From a virus (lineage: Duplodnaviria > Heunggongvirae > Uroviricota > Caudoviricetes), in IMG/VR virus record IMGVR_UViG_2681813262_000007: a stretch of DNA of 16,402 nucleotides; one strand, written 5' to 3'. Shown here piece by piece: positions 162 through 9,530 of this stretch (within the stretch, counting starts at the first letter, position 1; the number at the start of each line of letters is the position of its first letter). The notes under the pieces are model-generated. The model had not been told where the DNA came from, searched no databases, and was given only the letters and a program-made list of their open reading frames with translations. Position numbers and translations under genes: made by a program.

Positions 162-408
162 CTGCAGAAAACAGGTTCCCCGTTAAATGCTATGTTGCTC
201 ACAATTCAGTAAGTTGACAGTTGCCTGTCAGACTGGGCATTTGTTAAAAAAATTTCGCATGGTGAATCCCCCTGAGCGGAGGGGCGACTGGTGACGGTAT
301 AATCTCTGATTATCAAAACGAGAATGACGCGGGTTTAGTGGCACCGGGCTGAACTCACCGGGAGGCACCCGGCACCATGTGCATGATGATACAGATACGC
401 GGCTTTAG

Positions 409-466
409 CCCCTCTCCGGAGGGGTTTTCTTGTGGGCAAAAAAAGCCCGCGCTGGGAGACGCGGGC
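409..466. terminator. Pair of back-to-back GC hairpins: plus-strand terminator (409-431) and a possible minus-strand terminator (438-466)
   Basis: cccctc-tccg-gagggg followed by ttttctt (plus strand). Then A7 + gcccgcg-ctgggaga-cgcgggc, which on the minus strand reads as GC stem + T7. Confidence 0.4.
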
Positions 467-659: not shown

Positions 660-2441
660 ATGGCATTTAAACACTATGACGTGGTCAGGGCGGCATCGCC
701 GTCAGACCTTGCGAAACGACTGACACAAAAACTGAAGGAGGGCTGGCAGCCGTTTGGTAGTCCGGTGGCCATAACCCCTTATACCCTGATGCAGGCGATT
801 GCAGCAGAAGGTGATGTGGTCGTCAGTGGTGCAACTGAGCCGGAGTGGTACTACGTCATCGTACTGGCCGGGCAATCCAATGCCATGGCTTACGGTGAAG
901 GTCTTCCGCTTCCGGATTCATACGATGCGCCCCATCCGCGCATTAAGCAACTGGCCCGTCGTAACACAGTGACTCCCGGTGGTGAAGTATGCGTATTTAA
1001 CGACATCATTCCTGCTGACCATTGTCTGCATGATGTTCAGGATATGAGTACGATTAACCATCCCCGGGCTGACCTGAGCAAAGGGCAGTACGGCTGTGTC
1101 GGACAGGGCTTACATATTGCCAAAAAACTGCTTCCGTATATCCCTAATAATGCGGGGATCCTGCTGGTACCATGCTGTCGTGGTGGTTCGGCATTCACCC
1201 AGGGCACGGAGGGGACATTCAGCGAGTCCACGGGAGCCAGTCAGGATTCGGCTCGCTGGGGAGTGGGTAAGCCGTTATATCAGGATCTGCTTTTCCGCAC
1301 GAAGGCAGCATTGCAGAAAAACCCGAAAAACGTTTTGCTGGCGATATGCTGGATGCAGGGGGAATTCGATATGACGAATGCCAGTTACGCCCAGCAGCCA
1401 GCAGCATTTCTTGCAATGGTACAGCAGTTCCGTGCTGACCTTGCCGGGCTGGCAGCGCAGTGTCACGGTGGAAGTCCGGCATCAGTCCCCTGGATTTGTG
1501 GCGACACGACATACGCGTGGAAACAAGAACACGGTACGCAATATGAAGTGGTATATGGTGCATATAAAGGTAAAGAATCCCAGCAGATTTATTTTGTTCC
1601 CTTTATGACCGATGGTAGCGGAGTTAATACACCGACAAACAACCCGTCAGAAGATCCTGATATTGCCGGGTCTGGTTATTACGGTTCGGCATCCCGAACG
1701 AACAAAAACTGGGTATCATCAAATCGCCCGACGCATTTCAGCTCATGGGCGCGTCGTGGCATTATTCCCGATCGTATGGCAACTGCTATTCTGAACGTAG
1801 CCGGTCGCACCTTAGCCTTCATTAGTGGTAAGGCACCGGAAATCAAACCCTCGCCCGGCGGCGACACGCCATCGGGGCCGTCTGAAGATGCATCCATTCA
1901 GTTGTCAGATGGTGTATTTAAGATCACCAAGCAGAGCAATAAAGCCTGGTCCCTGACGCGCCCGGTGGATGACGCAGTCTCCCTGCTGACACGGGGTGGC
2001 AGACTGAGCTGTAAGTTTCGACTGTCAGGCGCACTGACCAACAACCAGTTCGGTCTGGGAATTTATCTGTATACCGATGTAGCGTTACCTGACGTCGTGG
2101 CGATGACCGGGACTGGTAACCCGTTCCTGATGTCGTTCTTCACCCAGACCACAGACGGCAAACTGAATCTGATGCATCACAAGAAAGCCGGAAACACAAA
2201 GTTGGGCGAGTTCGGGAATTACAGTAACGACTGGCAGACGCTGGAGCTGGTGTTCACCGCCGGCAGTGCCACGGTTACTCCGAAACTGAATGGAGTGGCT
2301 GGCCCGGCATTCCAGGTCATAAAAGACAGTCTGACAGTGGGACTAAATGCACTGACGCTGACGGATATTACCAAAAATGCAACGTATGGCGTTGAGATAG
2401 AAAGTCTGGTGCTGGAGATAAATGCACCGGCATCATCATAA
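660..2441 (+). CDS. nanS: Prophage-encoded sialate O-acetylesterase (NanS-p-like): N-terminal DUF1737-like domain, SASA/SGNH-type esterase core, C-terminal ~200-aa putative carbohydrate-binding domain
   Basis: 593-aa ORF with GGAGG RBS (651-655). Contains the GQSN serine motif ([16 protein letters not shown]) and a later WMQGEFD block typical of sialate O-acetylesterases. Architecture and position (upstream of the holin) match NanS-p morons of E. coli lambdoid and Stx prophages. Family assignment is from memory, not a search. Confidence 0.8.
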
Positions 2442-2525
2442 AAAGTGAGCCAGTCAAATGGAAGGTATCGTTAAACTCACCGGTAGTGTCAGTGGGTCGT
2501 CTGAGACGCCTGCATGAGTTATCAG

Positions 2526-2557
2526 AGCCATCAGTACTTAACTGGTGGCTTTTTTAT
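2526..2557 (+). terminator. Rho-independent terminator between the esterase gene and the holin (tR'-like position)
   Basis: 10-bp stem agccatcagt/actggtggct (one G-U pair), 5-nt loop, followed by tttttt (2551-2556). Confidence 0.5.
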
Positions 2558-2590
2558 TGTTGTCAGCTTCCGGATAACGGGAGACGGGGT

Positions 2591-2806
2591 ATGTACCAGA
2601 TGGAAAAAATCACAACAGGTGTGTCATACACCACGTCAGCGGTGGGAACGGGCTACTGGTTCCTGCAGTTGCTGGACAGGGTTTCCCCGTCTCAGTGGGC
2701 GGCAATAGGCGTGCTGGGGAGTCTGCTGTTTGGGCTGCTGACATATCTGACTAACCTGTATTTCAAAATCAGAGAGGACCGTCGTAAGGCTGCACGGGGA
2801 GAGTAA
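2591..2806 (+). CDS. S: Class II pinholin (phage 21 S21 / Stx-phage S family), dual-start motif MYQM
   Basis: 71 aa, two TMDs (SAR-like TMD1 [22 protein letters not shown]; TMD2 [23 protein letters not shown]), C-terminal [13 protein letters not shown] nearly identical to remembered S21. GGGAGACGGGG RBS upstream. The 2486 start in the ORF track is an upstream extension across the terminator and is not credible. Confidence 0.85.
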
Positions 2807-2810
2807 TTCA

Positions 2811-3161
2811 ATGACTCAAAACTATGAACTGATTGTGAAAGGGATCCGCAATTTTGAGAATAAAGTTACGGTAACTTTAGCGTTACGGGACAAAAAACGC
2901 TTTGACGGTGAAATTTTTGACCTGGACATCTCGCTGGACCGTGTTGAAGGTGCCGCGCTGGAGTTTTATGAGGCAGCAGCCAGAAGGAGCATCAGACAGG
3001 TCTTCCTGGATGTTGCTGCCGGGTTATGTGAAGGGGATGAGCAGTCGCCGGAAAAGCGCCCCGTAATTTTAGAGGCGCAGAATGTGTGGATAACCTACAA
3101 AGGAAAGCTACCAGGAAGAATTACTGGTTCTCTGAAGACTCCTCCGGAATCACAACCTTAA
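2811..3161 (+). CDS. Hypothetical 116-aa soluble charged protein inserted between holin and endolysin; possibly YdfR/DUF1327-like
   Basis: ATG 4 nt after the holin stop, GGGAGA RBS, no TM segment. A gene of similar size occupies the same holin-lysozyme slot in E. coli prophage Qin (ydfR) as I recall it; sequence homology not verified. Confidence 0.65.
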   Translation: MTQNYELIVKGIRNFENKVTVTLALRDKKRFDGEIFDLDISLDRVEGAALEFYEAAARRSIRQVFLDVAAGLCEGDEQSPEKRPVILEAQNVWITYKGKLPGRITGSLKTPPESQP

Positions 3162-3224
3162 GTCACTGACCAGAACAGATAAACCTGTCCGTGGGCAGAA
3201 ACCGATAAATCCTGATAAATATCC

Positions 3225-3758
3225 ATGAACGCAAAAATCAGATACGGCCTGTCGGCTGCCGTTCTGGCACTGATTGCCGTCGGTGCGCCCGCGCCTGATA
3301 TTCTCGACCAGTTTCTGGATGAAAAAGAGGGTAACCACACTACGGCATACCGCGATGGTTCCGGCATCTGGACCATCTGTCGGGGGGCCACGATGGTGGA
3401 TGGAAAACCCGTTTTTCCCGGTATGAAACTGTCGAAGGAAAAATGCGACCAGGTCAACGCCATTGAGCGTGATAAGGCGCTGGCATGGGTGGAGAAAAAC
3501 ATCAAAGTGCCATTGAGCGAACCCCAGAAAGCGGGGATCGCGTCATTCTGTCCGTACAACATTGGTCCCGGTAAGTGTTTCCCGTCGACGTTTTATAAAC
3601 GAATTAATGCAGGTGATCGCAGGGGAGCGTGTGAGGCGATTCGCTGGTGGATTAAGGACGGTGGCAGAGACTGCCGTATTCGTTCAAACAACTGCTACGG
3701 TCAGGTATCCCGTCGTGACCAGGAGAGTGCGCTGGCGTGCTGGGGTATCGACAGATAA
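3225..3758 (+). CDS. R: SAR endolysin (T4-lysozyme-like muramidase, GH24, R21 type)
   Basis: 177 aa. N-terminal weakly hydrophobic Gly/Ala-rich signal-anchor-release domain (LSAAVLALIAVGAPAP); catalytic E-X8-D-X5-T triad (E GNHTTAYR D GSGIW T). Pairs functionally with the pinholin. Confidence 0.9.
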   Translation: MNAKIRYGLSAAVLALIAVGAPAPDILDQFLDEKEGNHTTAYRDGSGIWTICRGATMVDGKPVFPGMKLSKEKCDQVNAIERDKALAWVEKNIKVPLSEPQKAGIASFCPYNIGPGKCFPSTFYKRINAGDRRGACEAIRWWIKDGGRDCRIRSNNCYGQVSRRDQESALACWGIDR

Positions 3759-3850
3759 GCAGAATATTTTGCTGAAAAATAAGGCATGGCCACGCGGGCG
3801 GATAACACGAAATCCTGCGAACTGGCGAAACGTAAGTGAATAAAAGTAAA

Positions 3851-3887
3851 AACCCCGTTTGTTGGCAGCAAGCGGGGTTTTGTTTTT
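3851..3887 (+). terminator. Strong rho-independent terminator downstream of the endolysin
   Basis: 11-bp stem aaccccgtttg/caagcggggtt (one G-U), 7-nt loop, followed by ttgttttt. Confidence 0.6.
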
Positions 3888-3952
3888 ATGGCAGTAAGCT
3901 ATGGGAGGCTGCCTTGATTGATTTTAGCAAACTGATTAGGGAGTTGCGACTC

Positions 3953-4048
3953 ATGATTAGTCAATTACCAAACTGGAAATTTTTGCTGGTCTGGAGCATC
4001 CCTTTTTTATGGGTAGTATCCCAGTTAATTGTGGCAATTAAGGGGTAG
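3953..4048 (+). CDS. Putative 31-aa hydrophobic peptide (MISQLPNWKFLLVWSIPFLWVVSQLIVAIKG)
   Basis: ATG with AGGGAG RBS 9 nt upstream; single predicted TM helix. Caveat: the locus is T-rich, which favours hydrophobic codons by chance. Confidence 0.3.
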   Translation: MISQLPNWKFLLVWSIPFLWVVSQLIVAIKG

Positions 4049-4050
4049 CT

Positions 4051-4182
4051 ATGTCAGACAAACTCATAACGCCGGCAAAGGTCCTGTGTGTGATTGTCGG
4101 TATTTCATTTTCACTAATGCTGGTTGCTCTTTTTCTGTCCCTCGCCTGGGTGATGTTGTCTTCGTCGGGGCTGCTGGGGTGA
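4051..4182 (+). CDS. Putative 43-aa single-TM peptide (MSDKLITPAKVLCVIVGISFSLMLVALFLSLAWVMLSSSGLLG)
   Basis: ATG 2 nt after the previous stop with AAGGGG RBS; clean TM helix. Too short for the 60-aa ORF track and in a different frame from track ORF 4029..4301. Confidence 0.4.
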   Translation: MSDKLITPAKVLCVIVGISFSLMLVALFLSLAWVMLSSSGLLG

Positions 4183-4184
4183 CA

Positions 4185-4301
4185 GTGACTGATGACATCA
4201 GCAGAGCGCTGGCTTTTGCTATTAAGTGGGTGGCTGTTGGTATTGCTGTGTCTCCGATGCTATATGGGCTGGCAAAACTGGTCATTGCGCTGAAATCGTG
4301 A
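4185..4301 (+). CDS. Putative 38-aa hydrophobic peptide, GTG start (MTDDISRALAFAIKWVAVGIAVSPMLYGLAKLVIALKS); paralog of the next peptide
   Basis: GTG 2 nt after the previous stop. N-terminus and core align with the 4313..4399 peptide (MTDDISRALAFAIKWVAV vs [18 protein letters not shown]), and the conservation is at the protein level in this frame. Confidence 0.4.
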   Translation: MTDDISRALAFAIKWVAVGIAVSPMLYGLAKLVIALKS

Positions 4302-4312
4302 ACTTTAAAAAG

Positions 4313-4399
4313 ATGAGTGCTGAACTTATTCGGGCAATGGCATTTGCCATTCGTATTGTGGCCATTGCTGTTCTGGTCTGGGCAATCCGTTGGTGGTGA
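4313..4399 (+). CDS. Putative 28-aa hydrophobic peptide ([28 protein letters not shown]); paralog of the previous peptide
   Basis: ATG start; stop falls 1 nt before the Rz ATG; paralogy with 4185..4301. Weak RBS. Confidence 0.4.
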
Positions 4400-4400
4400 T

Positions 4401-4868
4401 ATGAACCGTGTTCTGTGTGTGGTGATTATTGTCATGCTGGTGGCCTGTGGTGCGCTTAGTCTGGGGCTGAATCATTACCGTGATAACGCCATTACCTACA
4501 AAGCCCAGCGCGACAAAAATGTCAGAGAACTGAAGCTGGCGAACGCGGCAATTACTGACATGCAGATGCGTCAGCGTGATGTTGCTGCGCTCGATGCAAA
4601 ATACTCGAGGGAATTAGCCGATGCGAGAGCTGAAAATGAAACTCTTCGCGCTGACGTTGCCGCTGGTCGTAAGCGCCTGCGTATCAACGCCACCTGTCCA
4701 GGTCCCGTGCGTGAAGCCACCGGCACCGCCCGCGTGGATAATGCAACCGGCCCCCGACTGGCAGACACCGCTGAACGGGATTATTTCACCCTCAGAGAGC
4801 GGCTGATGACGATGCACAAGCAACTGGAAGGGGCGCAGGAATATATCCGCACTCAGTGCCTGAAATAA
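4401..4868 (+). CDS. Rz: Rz i-spanin (inner-membrane spanin subunit)
   Basis: 155 aa; N-terminal TM ([18 protein letters not shown]) and coiled-coil periplasmic domain. Closely resembles remembered lambda Rz ([17 protein letters not shown]...[24 protein letters not shown]). The 4317 start in the track is an upstream extension. Confidence 0.9.
4621..4806 (+). CDS. Rz1: Rz1 o-spanin (outer-membrane lipoprotein), embedded in the +1 frame of Rz
   Basis: 61 aa with signal peptide and lipobox (LVVSAC), proline-rich mature region ([30 protein letters not shown]) matching lambda Rz1. An alternative start at 4636 is possible. Confidence 0.85.
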
Positions 4869-7941: not shown

Positions 7942-9530
7942 AACGAACGCCTGTCCTGATTGATGTGAACGGCGTTCCGCTTCGTGAGAGTCTCAGCTAC
8001 AACGGGGGCGGCGCAGGATTTGGCGGGCAAATGGCGGAGTGGTTGCCACCGGCGCAGAGTGCCGATGCAGCCCTGCTGCCTGCGTTGCGTCTGGGGAATG
8101 CCCGGGCAGATGATCTGGTGCGCAATAACGGGATAGCGGCTAATGCGGTGGCCCTGCATAAGGATCATATTGTCGGGCATATGTTTCTGATCAGCTACCG
8201 TCCGAACTGGCGCTGGCTGGGGATGCGGGAGACTGCGGCAAAAAGTTTTGTCGATGAGGTGGAGGCGGCCTGGTCAGAATACGCAGAAGGGATGTTTGGC
8301 GAGATCGACGTGGAAGGGAAACGCACGTTTACGGAATTTATCCGTGAAGGTGTGGGCGTTCATGCGTTTAACGGCGAAATCTTTGTGCAGCCGGTCTGGG
8401 ATACGGAAACCACGCAGTTATTCCGTACGCGTTTTAAAGCCGTGAGTCCGAAACGGGTGGACACGCCAGGACGCGGTATCGGGAACCGTTTTCTGCGGGC
8501 CGGTGTGGAGGTTGATCGATATGGCCGTGCCGTTGCGTACCATATCTGTGAGGATGATTTTCCTCGCTCCGGGAGTGGACGATGGGAACGGATCCCGCGT
8601 GAACTACCCACCGGGCGTCCGGCCATGCTGCATATTTTCGAGCCGGTGGAGGACGGGCAGACCCGTGGAGCCAATCAGTTTTACAGCGTTATGGAACGGC
8701 TGAAGATGCTGGATTCCCTGCAGGCAACACAGCTTCAGTCGGCCATAGTGAAGGCGATGTATGCAGCGACGATTGAAAGTGACCTTGATACCGAAAAGGC
8801 CTTTGAATATATCGCCGGTGCGCCGCAGGGGCAGAAGGATAATCCGCTTATTAATATTCTGGATAAGTTCTCCACCTGGTATGACACGAATAGCGTGACG
8901 CTGGGCGGTGTCAAAATTCCGCACCTTTTCCCCGGTGATGATCTGAAACTTCAGACCGCGCAGGATTCAGACAATGGATTTTCGGCGCTTGAACAGGCGC
9001 TGCTGCGGTATATCGCCGCCGGTCTTGGCGTTTCCTACGAACAGTTGTCCCGTGATTACTCGAAGGTCAGTTACTCAAGTGCCCGCGCATCCGCCAATGA
9101 GTCGTGGCGCTATTTTATGGGGCGGCGAAAATTTATTGCGTCCCGGCTGGCCACGCAGATGTTTTCCTGCTGGCTGGAAGAGGCACTTCTTCGGGGGATT
9201 ATTCGTCCGCCACGGGCACGGTTTGATTTTTATCAGGCGCGATCAGCCTGGTCACGGGCTGAGTGGATTGGAGCCGGAAGAATGGCCATTGACGGGCTCA
9301 AGGAGGTTCAGGAATCAGTGATGCGCATTGAGGCCGGACTGAGCACGTATGAGAAAGAGCTGGCGCTGATGGGCGAGGATTATCAGGACATTTTCCGCCA
9401 GCAGGTCAGGGAATCTGCAGAGCGGGAAAAAGCCGGACTCTCACGTCCGGTGTGGATAGCGCAGGCGTATCAGCAGCAGATAGCGGAGAGTCGCAGGCCG
9501 GAAGAGGAGACAACACCACGTGAGACGTAA
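7938..9530 (+). CDS. B: Portal protein (gpB)
   Basis: 530 aa in the lambda gpB position and of matching size; ATGA overlap with the W stop. Confidence 0.9.
   Translation: MKRTPVLIDVNGVPLRESLSYNGGGAGFGGQMAEWLPPAQSADAALLPALRLGNARADDLVRNNGIAANAVALHKDHIVGHMFLISYRPNWRWLGMRETAAKSFVDEVEAAWSEYAEGMFGEIDVEGKRTFTEFIREGVGVHAFNGEIFVQPVWDTETTQLFRTRFKAVSPKRVDTPGRGIGNRFLRAGVEVDRYGRAVAYHICEDDFPRSGSGRWERIPRELPTGRPAMLHIFEPVEDGQTRGANQFYSVMERLKMLDSLQATQLQSAIVKAMYAATIESDLDTEKAFEYIAGAPQGQKDNPLINILDKFSTWYDTNSVTLGGVKIPHLFPGDDLKLQTAQDSDNGFSALEQALLRYIAAGLGVSYEQLSRDYSKVSYSSARASANESWRYFMGRRKFIASRLATQMFSCWLEEALLRGIIRPPRARFDFYQARSAWSRAEWIGAGRMAIDGLKEVQESVMRIEAGLSTYEKELALMGEDYQDIFRQQVRESAEREKAGLSRPVWIAQAYQQQIAESRRPEEETTPRET

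What the first reader, a model, noticed from the sequence alone, without database searches (positions are those of the whole stretch)
2811..3161. Uncharacterised 116-aa gene wedged between pinholin and SAR endolysin
The ORF starts 4 nt after the holin stop with a good RBS and is therefore co-expressed with the lysis genes, yet it has no TM segment and no recognisable catalytic motif. A gene in the equivalent holin-lysozyme slot exists in E. coli prophage Qin (ydfR, DUF1327) as I recall, and its function is unknown. A soluble protein made at the moment of lysis is a plausible candidate lysis regulator or a released effector, but that is speculation.
Basis: partly seen in the sequence, partly recalled or inferred. 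Interest (0 to 1): 0.55.

Follow-up and report, generated by a model that had tools for sequence, protein, structure and literature searches.

The report
YdfR-family gene in prophage lysis cassette
The 116-codon gene between the holin and the lysozyme is real, but it is a copy of a known, very common E. coli prophage gene (YdfR / DUF1327) of unknown function, and it looks like optional cargo in the late operon, not a core part of the lysis machinery.

Summary
ORF 2811-3161 (+) starts 4 nt after the stop of a phage-21-type holin, behind GGGGAGAG. It has no membrane segment and is under purifying selection. It matches Pfam DUF1327 (E 7.5e-43), and RefSeq already annotates an identical gene as 'YdfR family protein'. 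Related DNA is in 4305 of 5426 complete E. coli genomes.

What this work adds:
- The protein is modular. A conserved N-domain (residues 1-75) is predicted as three strands plus a helix. The C-terminus is swappable; here it is a 32-residue 'B' module.
- The gene is optional. Phage 933W has R at exactly this start, using the same Shine-Dalgarno.
- Its GC is low (47% against 53-55% in neighbours).
- Yersinia-type homologues of the N-domain lie among tail genes.
- Many relatives carry a convergent small gene just downstream. The window does not.

These points weaken a lysis-specific role. The only experimental lead is a 2026 paper: residues 1-72 of K-12 YdfR, 81% identical to the window protein over residues 1-74, bind the catalytic half of RNase E and co-purify with RNA. 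My best guess, at modest confidence, is a late-expressed cytoplasmic binder of host RNase E or RNA. Already known; interest is moderate to low.

The parts
2796..2803 (+). Shine-Dalgarno-like GGGGAGAG inside the last holin codons, 7 nt before the ATG of the gene
   Evidence: Sequence. In 933W the same motif serves R, which starts 4 nt after the S stop.
2811..3161 (+). YdfR-family (DUF1327) coding sequence, 116 aa, soluble, pI 5.55
   Evidence: ORF. PF07041 E 7.5e-43. PHROG 406/2091, function unknown. dN/dS below 1. Identical to RefSeq 'YdfR family protein'.
2811..3035 (+). Conserved N-domain (residues 1-75): three antiparallel strands (5-14, 18-27, 34-43) and one helix (50-72). Acidic (pI 5.0), with the conserved motif EG..LE(F/Y)YE.
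   Evidence: AlphaFold2 block-mean pLDDT 79-94 over residues 1-70. 81% identical to K-12 YdfR residues 1-74. It is the only part shared with the Yersinia-type homologues.
3036..3050 (+). Linker (residues 76-80, DEQSP). This is the point where the C-terminal architectures of family members diverge.
   Evidence: pLDDT below 50 for residues 76-84. Alignments A1/A2 show different C-termini after about residue 75.
3051..3146 (+). C-terminal 'B' module (residues 81-112, EKRPVILEAQNVWITYKGKLPGRITGSLKTPP). It is conserved among Escherichia copies and absent from K-12 YdfR and phage Evi. In P0147 it occurs without the N-domain.
   Evidence: Alignments. dN/dS mostly 0.14-0.6, and dS is much lower than in the N-domain, so it is an intragenic mosaic. 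Low model confidence, no secondary structure predicted.
3151..3174 (.). Indel point. Here relatives (E. ruysiae L007) carry about 297 extra bases with a convergent 92-aa gene (phrog_2411). The window has no such gene.
   Evidence: blastn boundaries: window 2783-3150 and 3175-3300 against L007 3973-4340 and 4638-4764. ORFs. PHROG. tblastn of partner proteins against the window found nothing.
3162..3224 (+). 63-nt spacer before the lysozyme gene. Its last ~28 nt (…CCTGATAAATATCC) are a conserved, AU-rich R leader without a Shine-Dalgarno, shared by other insert-bearing cassettes.
   Evidence: Sequence comparison with Evi, L006 and L012.
2591..2806 (+). Context: phage 21-type class II holin (71 aa; second start at codon 4 gives 68 aa)
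   Evidence: PF04971 E 9e-33, phrog_9876 holin. Sequence.
3225..3758 (+). Context: lysozyme with an N-terminal signal-anchor-release-like segment
   Evidence: PF00959 E 2e-24, phrog_7 endolysin. About 90% or more identical to 933W R by eye.
4401..4868 (+). Context: Rz spanin, with an embedded Rz1-like lipoprotein ORF at 4621-4806
   Evidence: PF03245 E 2e-51, phrog_13. ORF list.

Best explanation
The gene is an ordinary member of the YdfR/DUF1327 family. This is a small, soluble, cytoplasmic accessory protein of Escherichia lambdoid prophages. It is carried as optional cargo at the holin-lysozyme junction of phage 21-type lysis cassettes.

It is transcribed with the late operon and translated from the ribosome-binding site that serves the lysozyme gene in insert-free cassettes. 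The conserved N-domain (residues 1-75, three strands plus a helix) is the functional unit. The C-terminus is an exchangeable add-on.

The most likely activity of the N-domain is binding to the catalytic N-terminal half of host RNase E, and/or to RNA, late in infection. It would then act on RNA decay, not on the timing of membrane or wall disruption.

Shown: family membership, modular structure, optional presence, and placement outside lysis cassettes in other phages. Taken from a paper on the K-12 orthologue: RNase E and RNA association. Inferred: that this copy does the same, and that this matters for the phage.
For: Identity:
- PF07041 at 145 bits.
- 81% identity to K-12 YdfR over residues 1-74.
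- RefSeq annotates an identical gene.

Optional cargo:
- In 933W the S stop plus 4 nt is the R start, with the same SD.
- 371 phage records match the cassette DNA, but only 101 encode a DUF1327 protein.
- GC is 47.3% and GC3 is 47%, against 53-55% and 55-64% in the neighbours.
- The content between the N-domain and R is highly variable.

Not lysis-specific:
- N-domain homologues of 72-94 aa lie between tail genes I and J (L002, L014, L016) or M and L (L003).
- Reciprocal tblastn covers all 72 residues at E 3e-8 to 2e-6 among the listed hits.
- The named sources are Yersinia.

RNase E and RNA (PMC13232886):
- YdfR(1-72) was recovered three times from a genomic two-hybrid library.
- Full-length YdfR gave signal with Rne(1-597).
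- Rne(1-598) co-eluted with Strep-YdfR but not with the negative control.
- The eluate held DNase-resistant nucleic acid.

Cytoplasmic and soluble.
Against: - The RNase E link rests on one study of an orthologue with a different C-terminus. There was no nuclease-treated in vitro test for YdfR, so RNA bridging is possible.
- Overexpression changed few transcripts and did not affect growth.
- Full-length YdfR did not give a two-hybrid signal with full-length RNase E.
- The N-domain is acidic, which is unusual for a direct RNA binder.
- In Escherichia the gene is always glued to the phage 21-type holin, even where the lysozyme is replaced (phiSTEC1575-Stx2k). A holin-related role is therefore not excluded.
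Confidence: 0.4

Rival explanations
1. Cytoplasmic lysis regulator. The acidic N-domain binds the basic cytoplasmic tail of the pinholin (…[13 protein letters not shown]) or the lysozyme before its release, and so tunes lysis timing. This would be analogous in logic to T4 RIII or P1 LydB (named from my own knowledge).
For: - Position and translational set-up inside the cassette.
- In every Escherichia/Shigella locus examined the gene directly follows a phage 21-type holin with the same 4-nt junction. This holds even where the downstream lysin is an M15 peptidase with other holins.
- In K-12 and Tritos its stop overlaps the R start (ATGA), which couples R translation to it.
- The K-12 ydfR deletion scored as an envelope-leakage hit in the CPRG screen (PMC3879167 supplements).
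Against: - Cassettes without it are widespread and functional (933W).
- Homologues lie in tail modules.
- The tight linkage to the holin can be explained by the 4-nt junction leaving no room for recombination.
- The CPRG hit can be a polar effect of the resistance cassette on the downstream lysozyme rrrQ (inference).
- There is no sequence relation to any family annotated as a lysis function.
Confidence: 0.2
2. Part of a mobile accessory module that benefits the lysogen or the phage in conflicts with other phages or with host defence (exclusion, defence or counter-defence). It would normally work with the small convergent gene found next to it in many relatives. The window carries a partner-less version.
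For: - A convergent gene of about 100 aa (phrog_25324), 60-70% identical, sits next to the 72-aa N-domain gene in three different genomic contexts: Evi lysis cassette, tail M/L, tail I/J.
- All 14 IMG/VR loci retrieved through that partner carry a DUF1327 gene about 30 nt away on the other strand.
- Other copies are followed by different convergent small genes: phrog_2411, 2572, 6806 and 10490, and also phage 86 orf6 and phiSTEC1575-Stx2k gp47.
- Low GC and mosaic structure.
Against: - No match to any PADLOC defence model.
- The partners belong to several families with no significant mutual similarity; the best cross-family match is 30% over 60 residues, E 0.006 in a seven-sequence database. 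The slot may simply be a hotspot for cargo.
- The window and YYZ-2008 lack any partner, yet the gene is still under purifying selection.
- No own promoter is predicted for the DUF1327 gene.
- 11 of the 14 loci are near-identical to Evi, so the number of independent observations is small.
Confidence: 0.2
3. Passenger with little function of its own. Its main effect is on expression of the lysozyme gene, which loses the strong SD and is left with an AU-rich, SD-less leader or an ATGA overlap.
For: - The insert takes over R's SD.
- R in insert-bearing cassettes has a conserved SD-less leader.
- C-termini are patchwork, and truncated or frameshifted variants are common in databases.
Against: - Purifying selection on both the N-domain and the B module.
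- The N-domain is conserved between Escherichia and Yersinia at 39-45% identity over its full length.
- Related DNA is present in 79% of complete E. coli genomes, up to 8 places per genome.
Confidence: 0.1

Closest known systems
E. coli K-12 YdfR (b1555, Qin prophage; Pfam DUF1327 / PF07041; RefSeq 'YdfR family protein')
   Same: Same family and same slot: essQ holin, 4 nt, ydfR, then rrrQ lysozyme. The N-domain is 81% identical over residues 1-74. It is also soluble and of unknown function.
   Different: The C-terminus is unrelated. K-12 has …EKLSEKVESYLQHQYSFKIENPANKHERPHHKYI, and the window has the B module. K-12 ydfR overlaps rrrQ by ATGA, whereas the window has a 63-nt spacer.
Phage proteins that target RNase E: phiKZ Dip (gp37), T4 Srd, T7 gp0.7 (named from my own knowledge; PDB 5ft0 is Dip)
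   Same: A small phage-encoded protein reported, for the K-12 orthologue, to associate with RNase E. Like Srd, it associates with the N-terminal half (PMC13232886).
Cytoplasmic lysis regulators T4 RIII and P1 LydB (from my own knowledge)
   Same: A small soluble protein encoded in or beside a lysis cassette.
   Different: No homology: Pfam, PHROG and NCBIfam return only DUF1327 and unknown-function families. Homologues occur outside lysis cassettes. No lysis phenotype is known.
Lambdoid 'morons' (extra genes such as bor, lom, cor inserted between conserved late genes; concept from my own knowledge)
   Same: Present or absent between conserved neighbours, atypical GC, found at different late-operon positions in different phages.
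   Different: Classical morons carry their own promoter and terminator. None is predicted here, and the gene instead uses the neighbour's ribosome-binding site.
Double-stranded RNA-binding domain (dsRBD, alpha-beta-beta-beta-alpha)

Membership tests
YdfR / DUF1327 (PF07041) | Match to the Pfam model above its gathering score | tested here: met
   145.1 bits against a cut-off of 25, E 7.5e-43. Residues 1-112 match model positions 1-92 of 93.
YdfR / DUF1327 (PF07041) | Homology to the name-giving protein, K-12 YdfR | tested here: met
   BLASTP: 81% identity over residues 1-74, E 2e-46. No similarity after residue 74.
YdfR / DUF1327 (PF07041) | Location directly after a phage 21-type holin in a lambdoid lysis cassette (typical, not required) | tested here: met
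   The Yersinia-type members break this rule.
RNase E N-terminal-half binding proteins (as reported for K-12 YdfR) | Physical association with RNase E residues 1-597/598 | not testable with these tools
   Known only for K-12 YdfR, by two-hybrid and co-purification (PMC13232886). The interacting segment 1-72 is the part conserved in the window protein.
Holin-associated lysis regulators (antiholin-type) | Sequence relation to a family annotated as a lysis function | tested here: not met
   Pfam, PHROGs and NCBIfam give only DUF1327 and unknown-function families.
Holin-associated lysis regulators (antiholin-type) | Change of lysis timing when removed or overproduced | not testable with these tools
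   No experiment is available. The K-12 CPRG hit is ambiguous.
Classical moron | Optional insertion between conserved genes, with atypical composition | tested here: met
   933W lacks it at the same junction. GC is 47% against 53-55%.
Classical moron | Own promoter and terminator | tested here: not met
   No promoter-like or terminator-like site is predicted on the + strand in 2590-3760. The consensus scan is crude.
dsRBD | Profile similarity and the full alpha-beta-beta-beta-alpha fold | tested here: not met
Known anti-phage defence systems (PADLOC-DB 2.0) | Match to any defence protein model | tested here: not met
   No hit at E <= 1 for the protein or for three of the convergent partner proteins.

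The most novel reading that the evidence does not exclude
The conserved DUF1327 N-domain may be a new family of temperate-phage modulators of RNase E. It would be made from the late transcript of lambdoid prophages, including Stx-converting ones, and would alter decay of the long late mRNA, which in Stx phages also carries the toxin genes. The variable C-terminal modules and the convergent partner genes would tune or counteract it. This would make one of the commonest uncharacterised prophage genes of E. coli a regulator of RNA turnover, and possibly of toxin yield.
Probability: 0.2. Interest if true: 0.65.

Novelty: already known. Interest (0 to 1): 0.35.

Why it matters
Sequences related to this gene are found in about four of five complete E. 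coli genomes, often at several places per genome, and in many Shiga-toxin phages. Yet nobody knows what the gene does. If the RNase E link of the K-12 orthologue holds for the family, it would add a temperate-phage, late-expressed player to the short list of phage proteins that act on the host RNA degradosome. It could also bear on expression of the late transcript that carries stx. If the gene instead tunes pinholin or lysozyme action, it would be a new kind of cytoplasmic lysis regulator. As it stands, the window copy is an ordinary member of a known family and adds no new kind of system.

Tried and rejected
- Sequence search of solved structures: no relative.
- NCBIfam and PADLOC: no hits.
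- Remnant of the convergent partner gene in the window: none.
- Own promoter or terminator for the gene: none predicted.
- Host of the tail-located homologues by DNA similarity to isolated phages: no match. This was resolved through protein names instead, which are Yersinia.
- A 3128-aa repeat protein (P0162) that HMMER lists at E 4.8e-8. Each repeat scores only 29 bits and the total comes from six near-identical copies, so I treat it as unproven.
- A distant-relative scan of species genomes using an alignment that included the Yersinia-type sequences failed for lack of a conserved stretch. The narrower alignment found only Escherichia and Shigella, plus two probably mis-binned MAGs.
- The 'released effector' idea: there is no signal peptide, no secretion-related feature, and no supporting data.

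Full report
**Observation.**
The ORF is there as described. It runs from 2811 to 3161 on the + strand and encodes 116 aa. The holin stop TAA is at 2804-2806, four bases (TTCA) follow, and then comes the ATG. GGGGAGAG at 2796-2803 ends 7 nt before the start.

The upstream gene (2591-2806) is a phage 21-type class II holin (PF04971, E 9e-33) with two starts, M1 and M4. The downstream gene (3225-3758) is a phage lysozyme (PF00959). It has an Ala/Gly-rich N-terminal segment, and E35, D44 and T50 are in place. That these residues form the R21 catalytic triad is from my own knowledge. Rz with an embedded Rz1 follows at 4401-4868.

The protein has no hydrophobic stretch (highest 19-residue hydropathy mean 0.69) and no signal peptide-like N-terminus. 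Its pI is 5.55.

It is a real gene:
- Pfam DUF1327 scores 145 bits against a cut-off of 25.
- dN/dS against homologues is 0.24-0.47 in codons 1-75 and mostly 0.14-0.6 in codons 81-113.
- An identical gene is annotated as 'YdfR family protein' in RefSeq.

The consensus scan finds no promoter-like site, and no terminator-like site on the + strand, between the holin start and the lysozyme stop. Co-transcription with the lysis genes is therefore the simplest reading.

**How common it is.**
- DNA related to the gene is found in 4305 of 5426 complete E. coli genomes, at 8347 places and up to 8 per genome. The near full-length form is in 1903 genomes.
- Among 50,697 phage records, 101 encode a relative. 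All are Escherichia or Stx-converting phages.
- The family is nevertheless tiny in sequence space. HMMER against 1.84 billion cluster representatives gives 65 hits at E <= 1e-3.
- A scan of one genome per prokaryotic species gives 8 loci. All are Escherichia or Shigella, apart from two MAGs labelled Veillonella and Bacillota that carry the same E. coli-type cassette and are probably mis-binned.
- K-12 Qin has essQ-ydfR-rrrQ-rzpQ with the same 4-nt holin junction.

**Anatomy.**
Alignments show a conserved N-domain up to about residue 75, followed by unrelated C-termini in different copies:

| Copy | Architecture |
|---|---|
| Window | N-domain + 32-residue module B (EKRPVILEAQNVWITYKGKLPGRITGSLKTPP) |
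| 176-183 aa forms | N-domain + B + a predicted coiled-coil-like tail |
| K-12 YdfR | N-domain + a different 29-residue tail |
| Phage Evi | N-domain alone (72 aa) |
| P0147 | Module B without the N-domain |

The window protein is 81% identical to K-12 YdfR over residues 1-74 and unrelated after that.

There are two deeply diverged N-domain alleles (MTQNYEL… and MKKKYEL…) with dS above 1.3. They share nearly the same B module (dS 0.1-0.3), so the gene is an intragenic mosaic.

AlphaFold2 predicts strands at 5-14, 18-27 and 34-43 and a helix at 50-72, with block-mean pLDDT of 79-94 over residues 1-70. Residues 76-116 are of low confidence and have no secondary structure.

No solved or predicted structure matches at a meaningful level:
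- Foldseek best E is 0.008 in BFVD and 0.055 in PDB.
- Sequence search of PDB finds nothing.

**The gene is optional cargo.**
In phage 933W the lysozyme gene R starts 4 nt after the S stop, behind the same GGGGAGAG. In the window, the YdfR-family gene sits exactly at that start and uses that ribosome-binding site. R is pushed 414 nt downstream. It is left with an AU-rich leader without a Shine-Dalgarno (…CCTGATAAATATCC ATG), and this leader is shared with other insert-bearing cassettes.

The gene's GC content is 47.3% (GC3 47%), against 53-55% (GC3 55-64%) in its neighbours. Of 371 phage records that match the cassette DNA, only 101 encode the protein.

The stretch between the N-domain and R is a variable slot:
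- K-12 and Tritos have an ATGA overlap with R.
- YYZ-2008 and the window have a short spacer.
- L007, L008, phage 86, phiSTEC1575-Stx2k and Evi have one or more small genes on the opposite strand.

Against E. ruysiae L007 the window is collinear, except that L007 has about 297 extra bases at window 3151-3174. Those bases hold a convergent 92-aa gene.

**Homologues outside lysis cassettes.**
The most distant family members are 72-94 aa, essentially the N-domain with at most a short tail.
- In L002, L014 and L016 the gene lies between tail genes I and J. In L003 it lies between M and L.
- A reciprocal tblastn with the L014 protein hits the E. coli phage genes over all 72 residues, at 39-45% identity and E 3e-8 to 2e-6 among the listed hits.
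- The named sources of these proteins are Yersinia enterocolitica and Y. rochesterensis.

The conserved domain is therefore not tied to a lysis cassette.

**A recurrent convergent neighbour.**
In L003, L014 and phage Evi the 72-aa gene is followed by a convergent gene of about 100 aa. The three copies are 60-70% identical to each other. The gene belongs to phrog_25324, of unknown function, and has no Pfam match.

All 14 IMG/VR loci retrieved through this partner have a DUF1327 gene about 30 nt away on the other strand. Eleven of the 14 are near-identical to Evi, so the independent lineages are few.

Other copies have different convergent small genes: phrog_2411, 2572, 6806 and 10490. Their mutual similarity is insignificant. 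No partner, or remnant of one, is in the window. None of these proteins matches a known defence model.

**What the literature says.**
Full-text searches found one paper mentioning DUF1327, only in passing, none with 'YdfR family', and one substantive study of YdfR: PMC13232886 (RNA Biol 2026). That study reports:
- YdfR(1-72) was recovered three times from a genomic two-hybrid library with RNase G as bait.
- It gave stronger signals with RNase E constructs.
- Full-length YdfR gave signal only with Rne(1-597).
- Rne(1-598)-FLAG co-eluted with Strep-YdfR but not with a negative control.
- The eluate held much DNase-resistant nucleic acid.
- Overexpression changed few transcripts and did not slow growth.
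- No nuclease-treated in vitro pull-down was done for YdfR.

The K-12 ydfR deletion is listed among the hits of the CPRG envelope screen (PMC3879167 supplements). The resistance cassette of such deletions can drive the downstream lysozyme gene rrrQ, so a polar effect is a plausible cause. That is my inference.

**Most likely mechanism.**
The gene is a late-operon accessory gene whose functional unit is the N-domain. The only tested activity of that domain is association with the catalytic half of RNase E and with RNA. The tested segment is 81% identical to the window protein over residues 1-74. I therefore rank 'cytoplasmic binder of host RNase E or RNA during late infection' first, at about 0.35-0.4.

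The rivals are:
- A cytoplasmic regulator of the pinholin or lysozyme (about 0.2). The invariant linkage to the phage 21-type holin in Escherichia supports it, including in a phage where the lysin is replaced. The tail-located homologues and the insert-free cassettes weaken it.
- A conflict-related module that normally works with a convergent partner (about 0.2).
- A near-neutral passenger that mainly changes lysozyme translation (about 0.1). Purifying selection and conservation between genera weaken this one.

**Comparison with known things.**
The gene is a member of YdfR/DUF1327 by every test. It is not a dsRBD: hhalign gives 0.2% probability (with the dsRBD alignment validated). It is not related to any family annotated as a lysis function. 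It meets the presence/absence and composition criteria of a moron, but not the own-promoter/terminator criterion.

**Verdict.**
The gene and family are already known and annotated, so novelty is 'already known'.

What this analysis adds is the modular structure, the exact insertion geometry relative to insert-free cassettes, the homologues in tail modules, and the recurrent convergent neighbour. Interest is moderate to low (0.35). The gene is very common and uncharacterised, and it now has a testable lead, but the window copy is an ordinary one.

Noticed in passing
window 228-437 (+): Full-length match to Rfam STnc100 (RF02076): 161 bits against a gathering score of 47, E 8.5e-37. It ends at a terminator-like hairpin (407-426, followed by a T-rich tail), upstream of the esterase gene. 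It may be the short leader transcript of the late operon, but that is a guess.
   Followed up: no
window 3849-3881 and 3950-4400 (+): The 640-nt gap between the lysozyme and Rz genes opens with a strong terminator-like hairpin (15 pairs, then GTTTTTAT). It also holds several small ORFs for hydrophobic peptides, e.g. 4051-4182 (43 aa) and 4226-4399 (57-aa ORF from a GTG; its C-terminal part [28 protein letters not shown] looks like the peptide). Some of them resemble each other. RefSeq annotates three 'hypothetical proteins' at the corresponding place, and 933W has the ant gene in this slot.
   Followed up: partly
L004 2744-3040 (-), L003 696-1001 (-), L014 4249-4548 (-), L018-L031: An uncharacterised protein of about 100 aa (phrog_25324, no Pfam) is encoded convergently, about 30 nt from the 72-aa DUF1327 gene, in three different genomic contexts. 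This holds in 14 of 14 loci retrieved through it. It may be a two-gene module.
   Followed up: partly
L007 4311-4589 (-), L008 4500-4766 (-), L002 5282-5506 (-), L016 4244-4576 (-): Other DUF1327 copies are followed by different convergent small genes (phrog_2411, 2572, 6806, 10490; 74-110 aa) without significant mutual similarity. The slot after the N-domain may be a cargo hotspot, or the partners may be very distant relatives of one another.
   Followed up: partly
P0147 (112 aa): This protein carries the C-terminal B module (EKRPIILEAQRVWITYKGKLPGRITGSLKTPP) behind a coiled-coil-like N-terminus and has no DUF1327 N-domain. The B module therefore moves independently.
   Followed up: no
P0162 (3128 aa): A giant repeat protein hits residues 6-57 of the query six times (33% identity, 29 bits each; summed E 4.8e-8). 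This may be a chance effect of near-identical repeats or a very remote relative of the three-strand part.
   Followed up: partly
window 660-2441 (+): 593-aa protein with DUF1737, a SASA sialate O-acetylesterase domain and DUF6645. It is the NanS-p-type esterase typical of Stx-like lambdoid prophages. No stx genes or tRNA genes are in the window.
   Followed up: no
L032 (phiSTEC1575-Stx2k) 1281-3299: A phage 21-type holin and the DUF1327 gene are followed by two more holin genes and an M15 peptidase, not by the usual lysozyme. This looks like a hybrid or double lysis cassette.
   Followed up: no
L010 and L012 (genome contigs): MAGs labelled Veillonella parvula and Bacillota carry an E. coli-type holin-ydfR junction. 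These contigs are probably mis-binned.
   Followed up: no
window 2524-2552 (+): A terminator-like hairpin (12 pairs plus a T-run) lies about 40 nt upstream of the holin start, inside the late operon.
   Followed up: no
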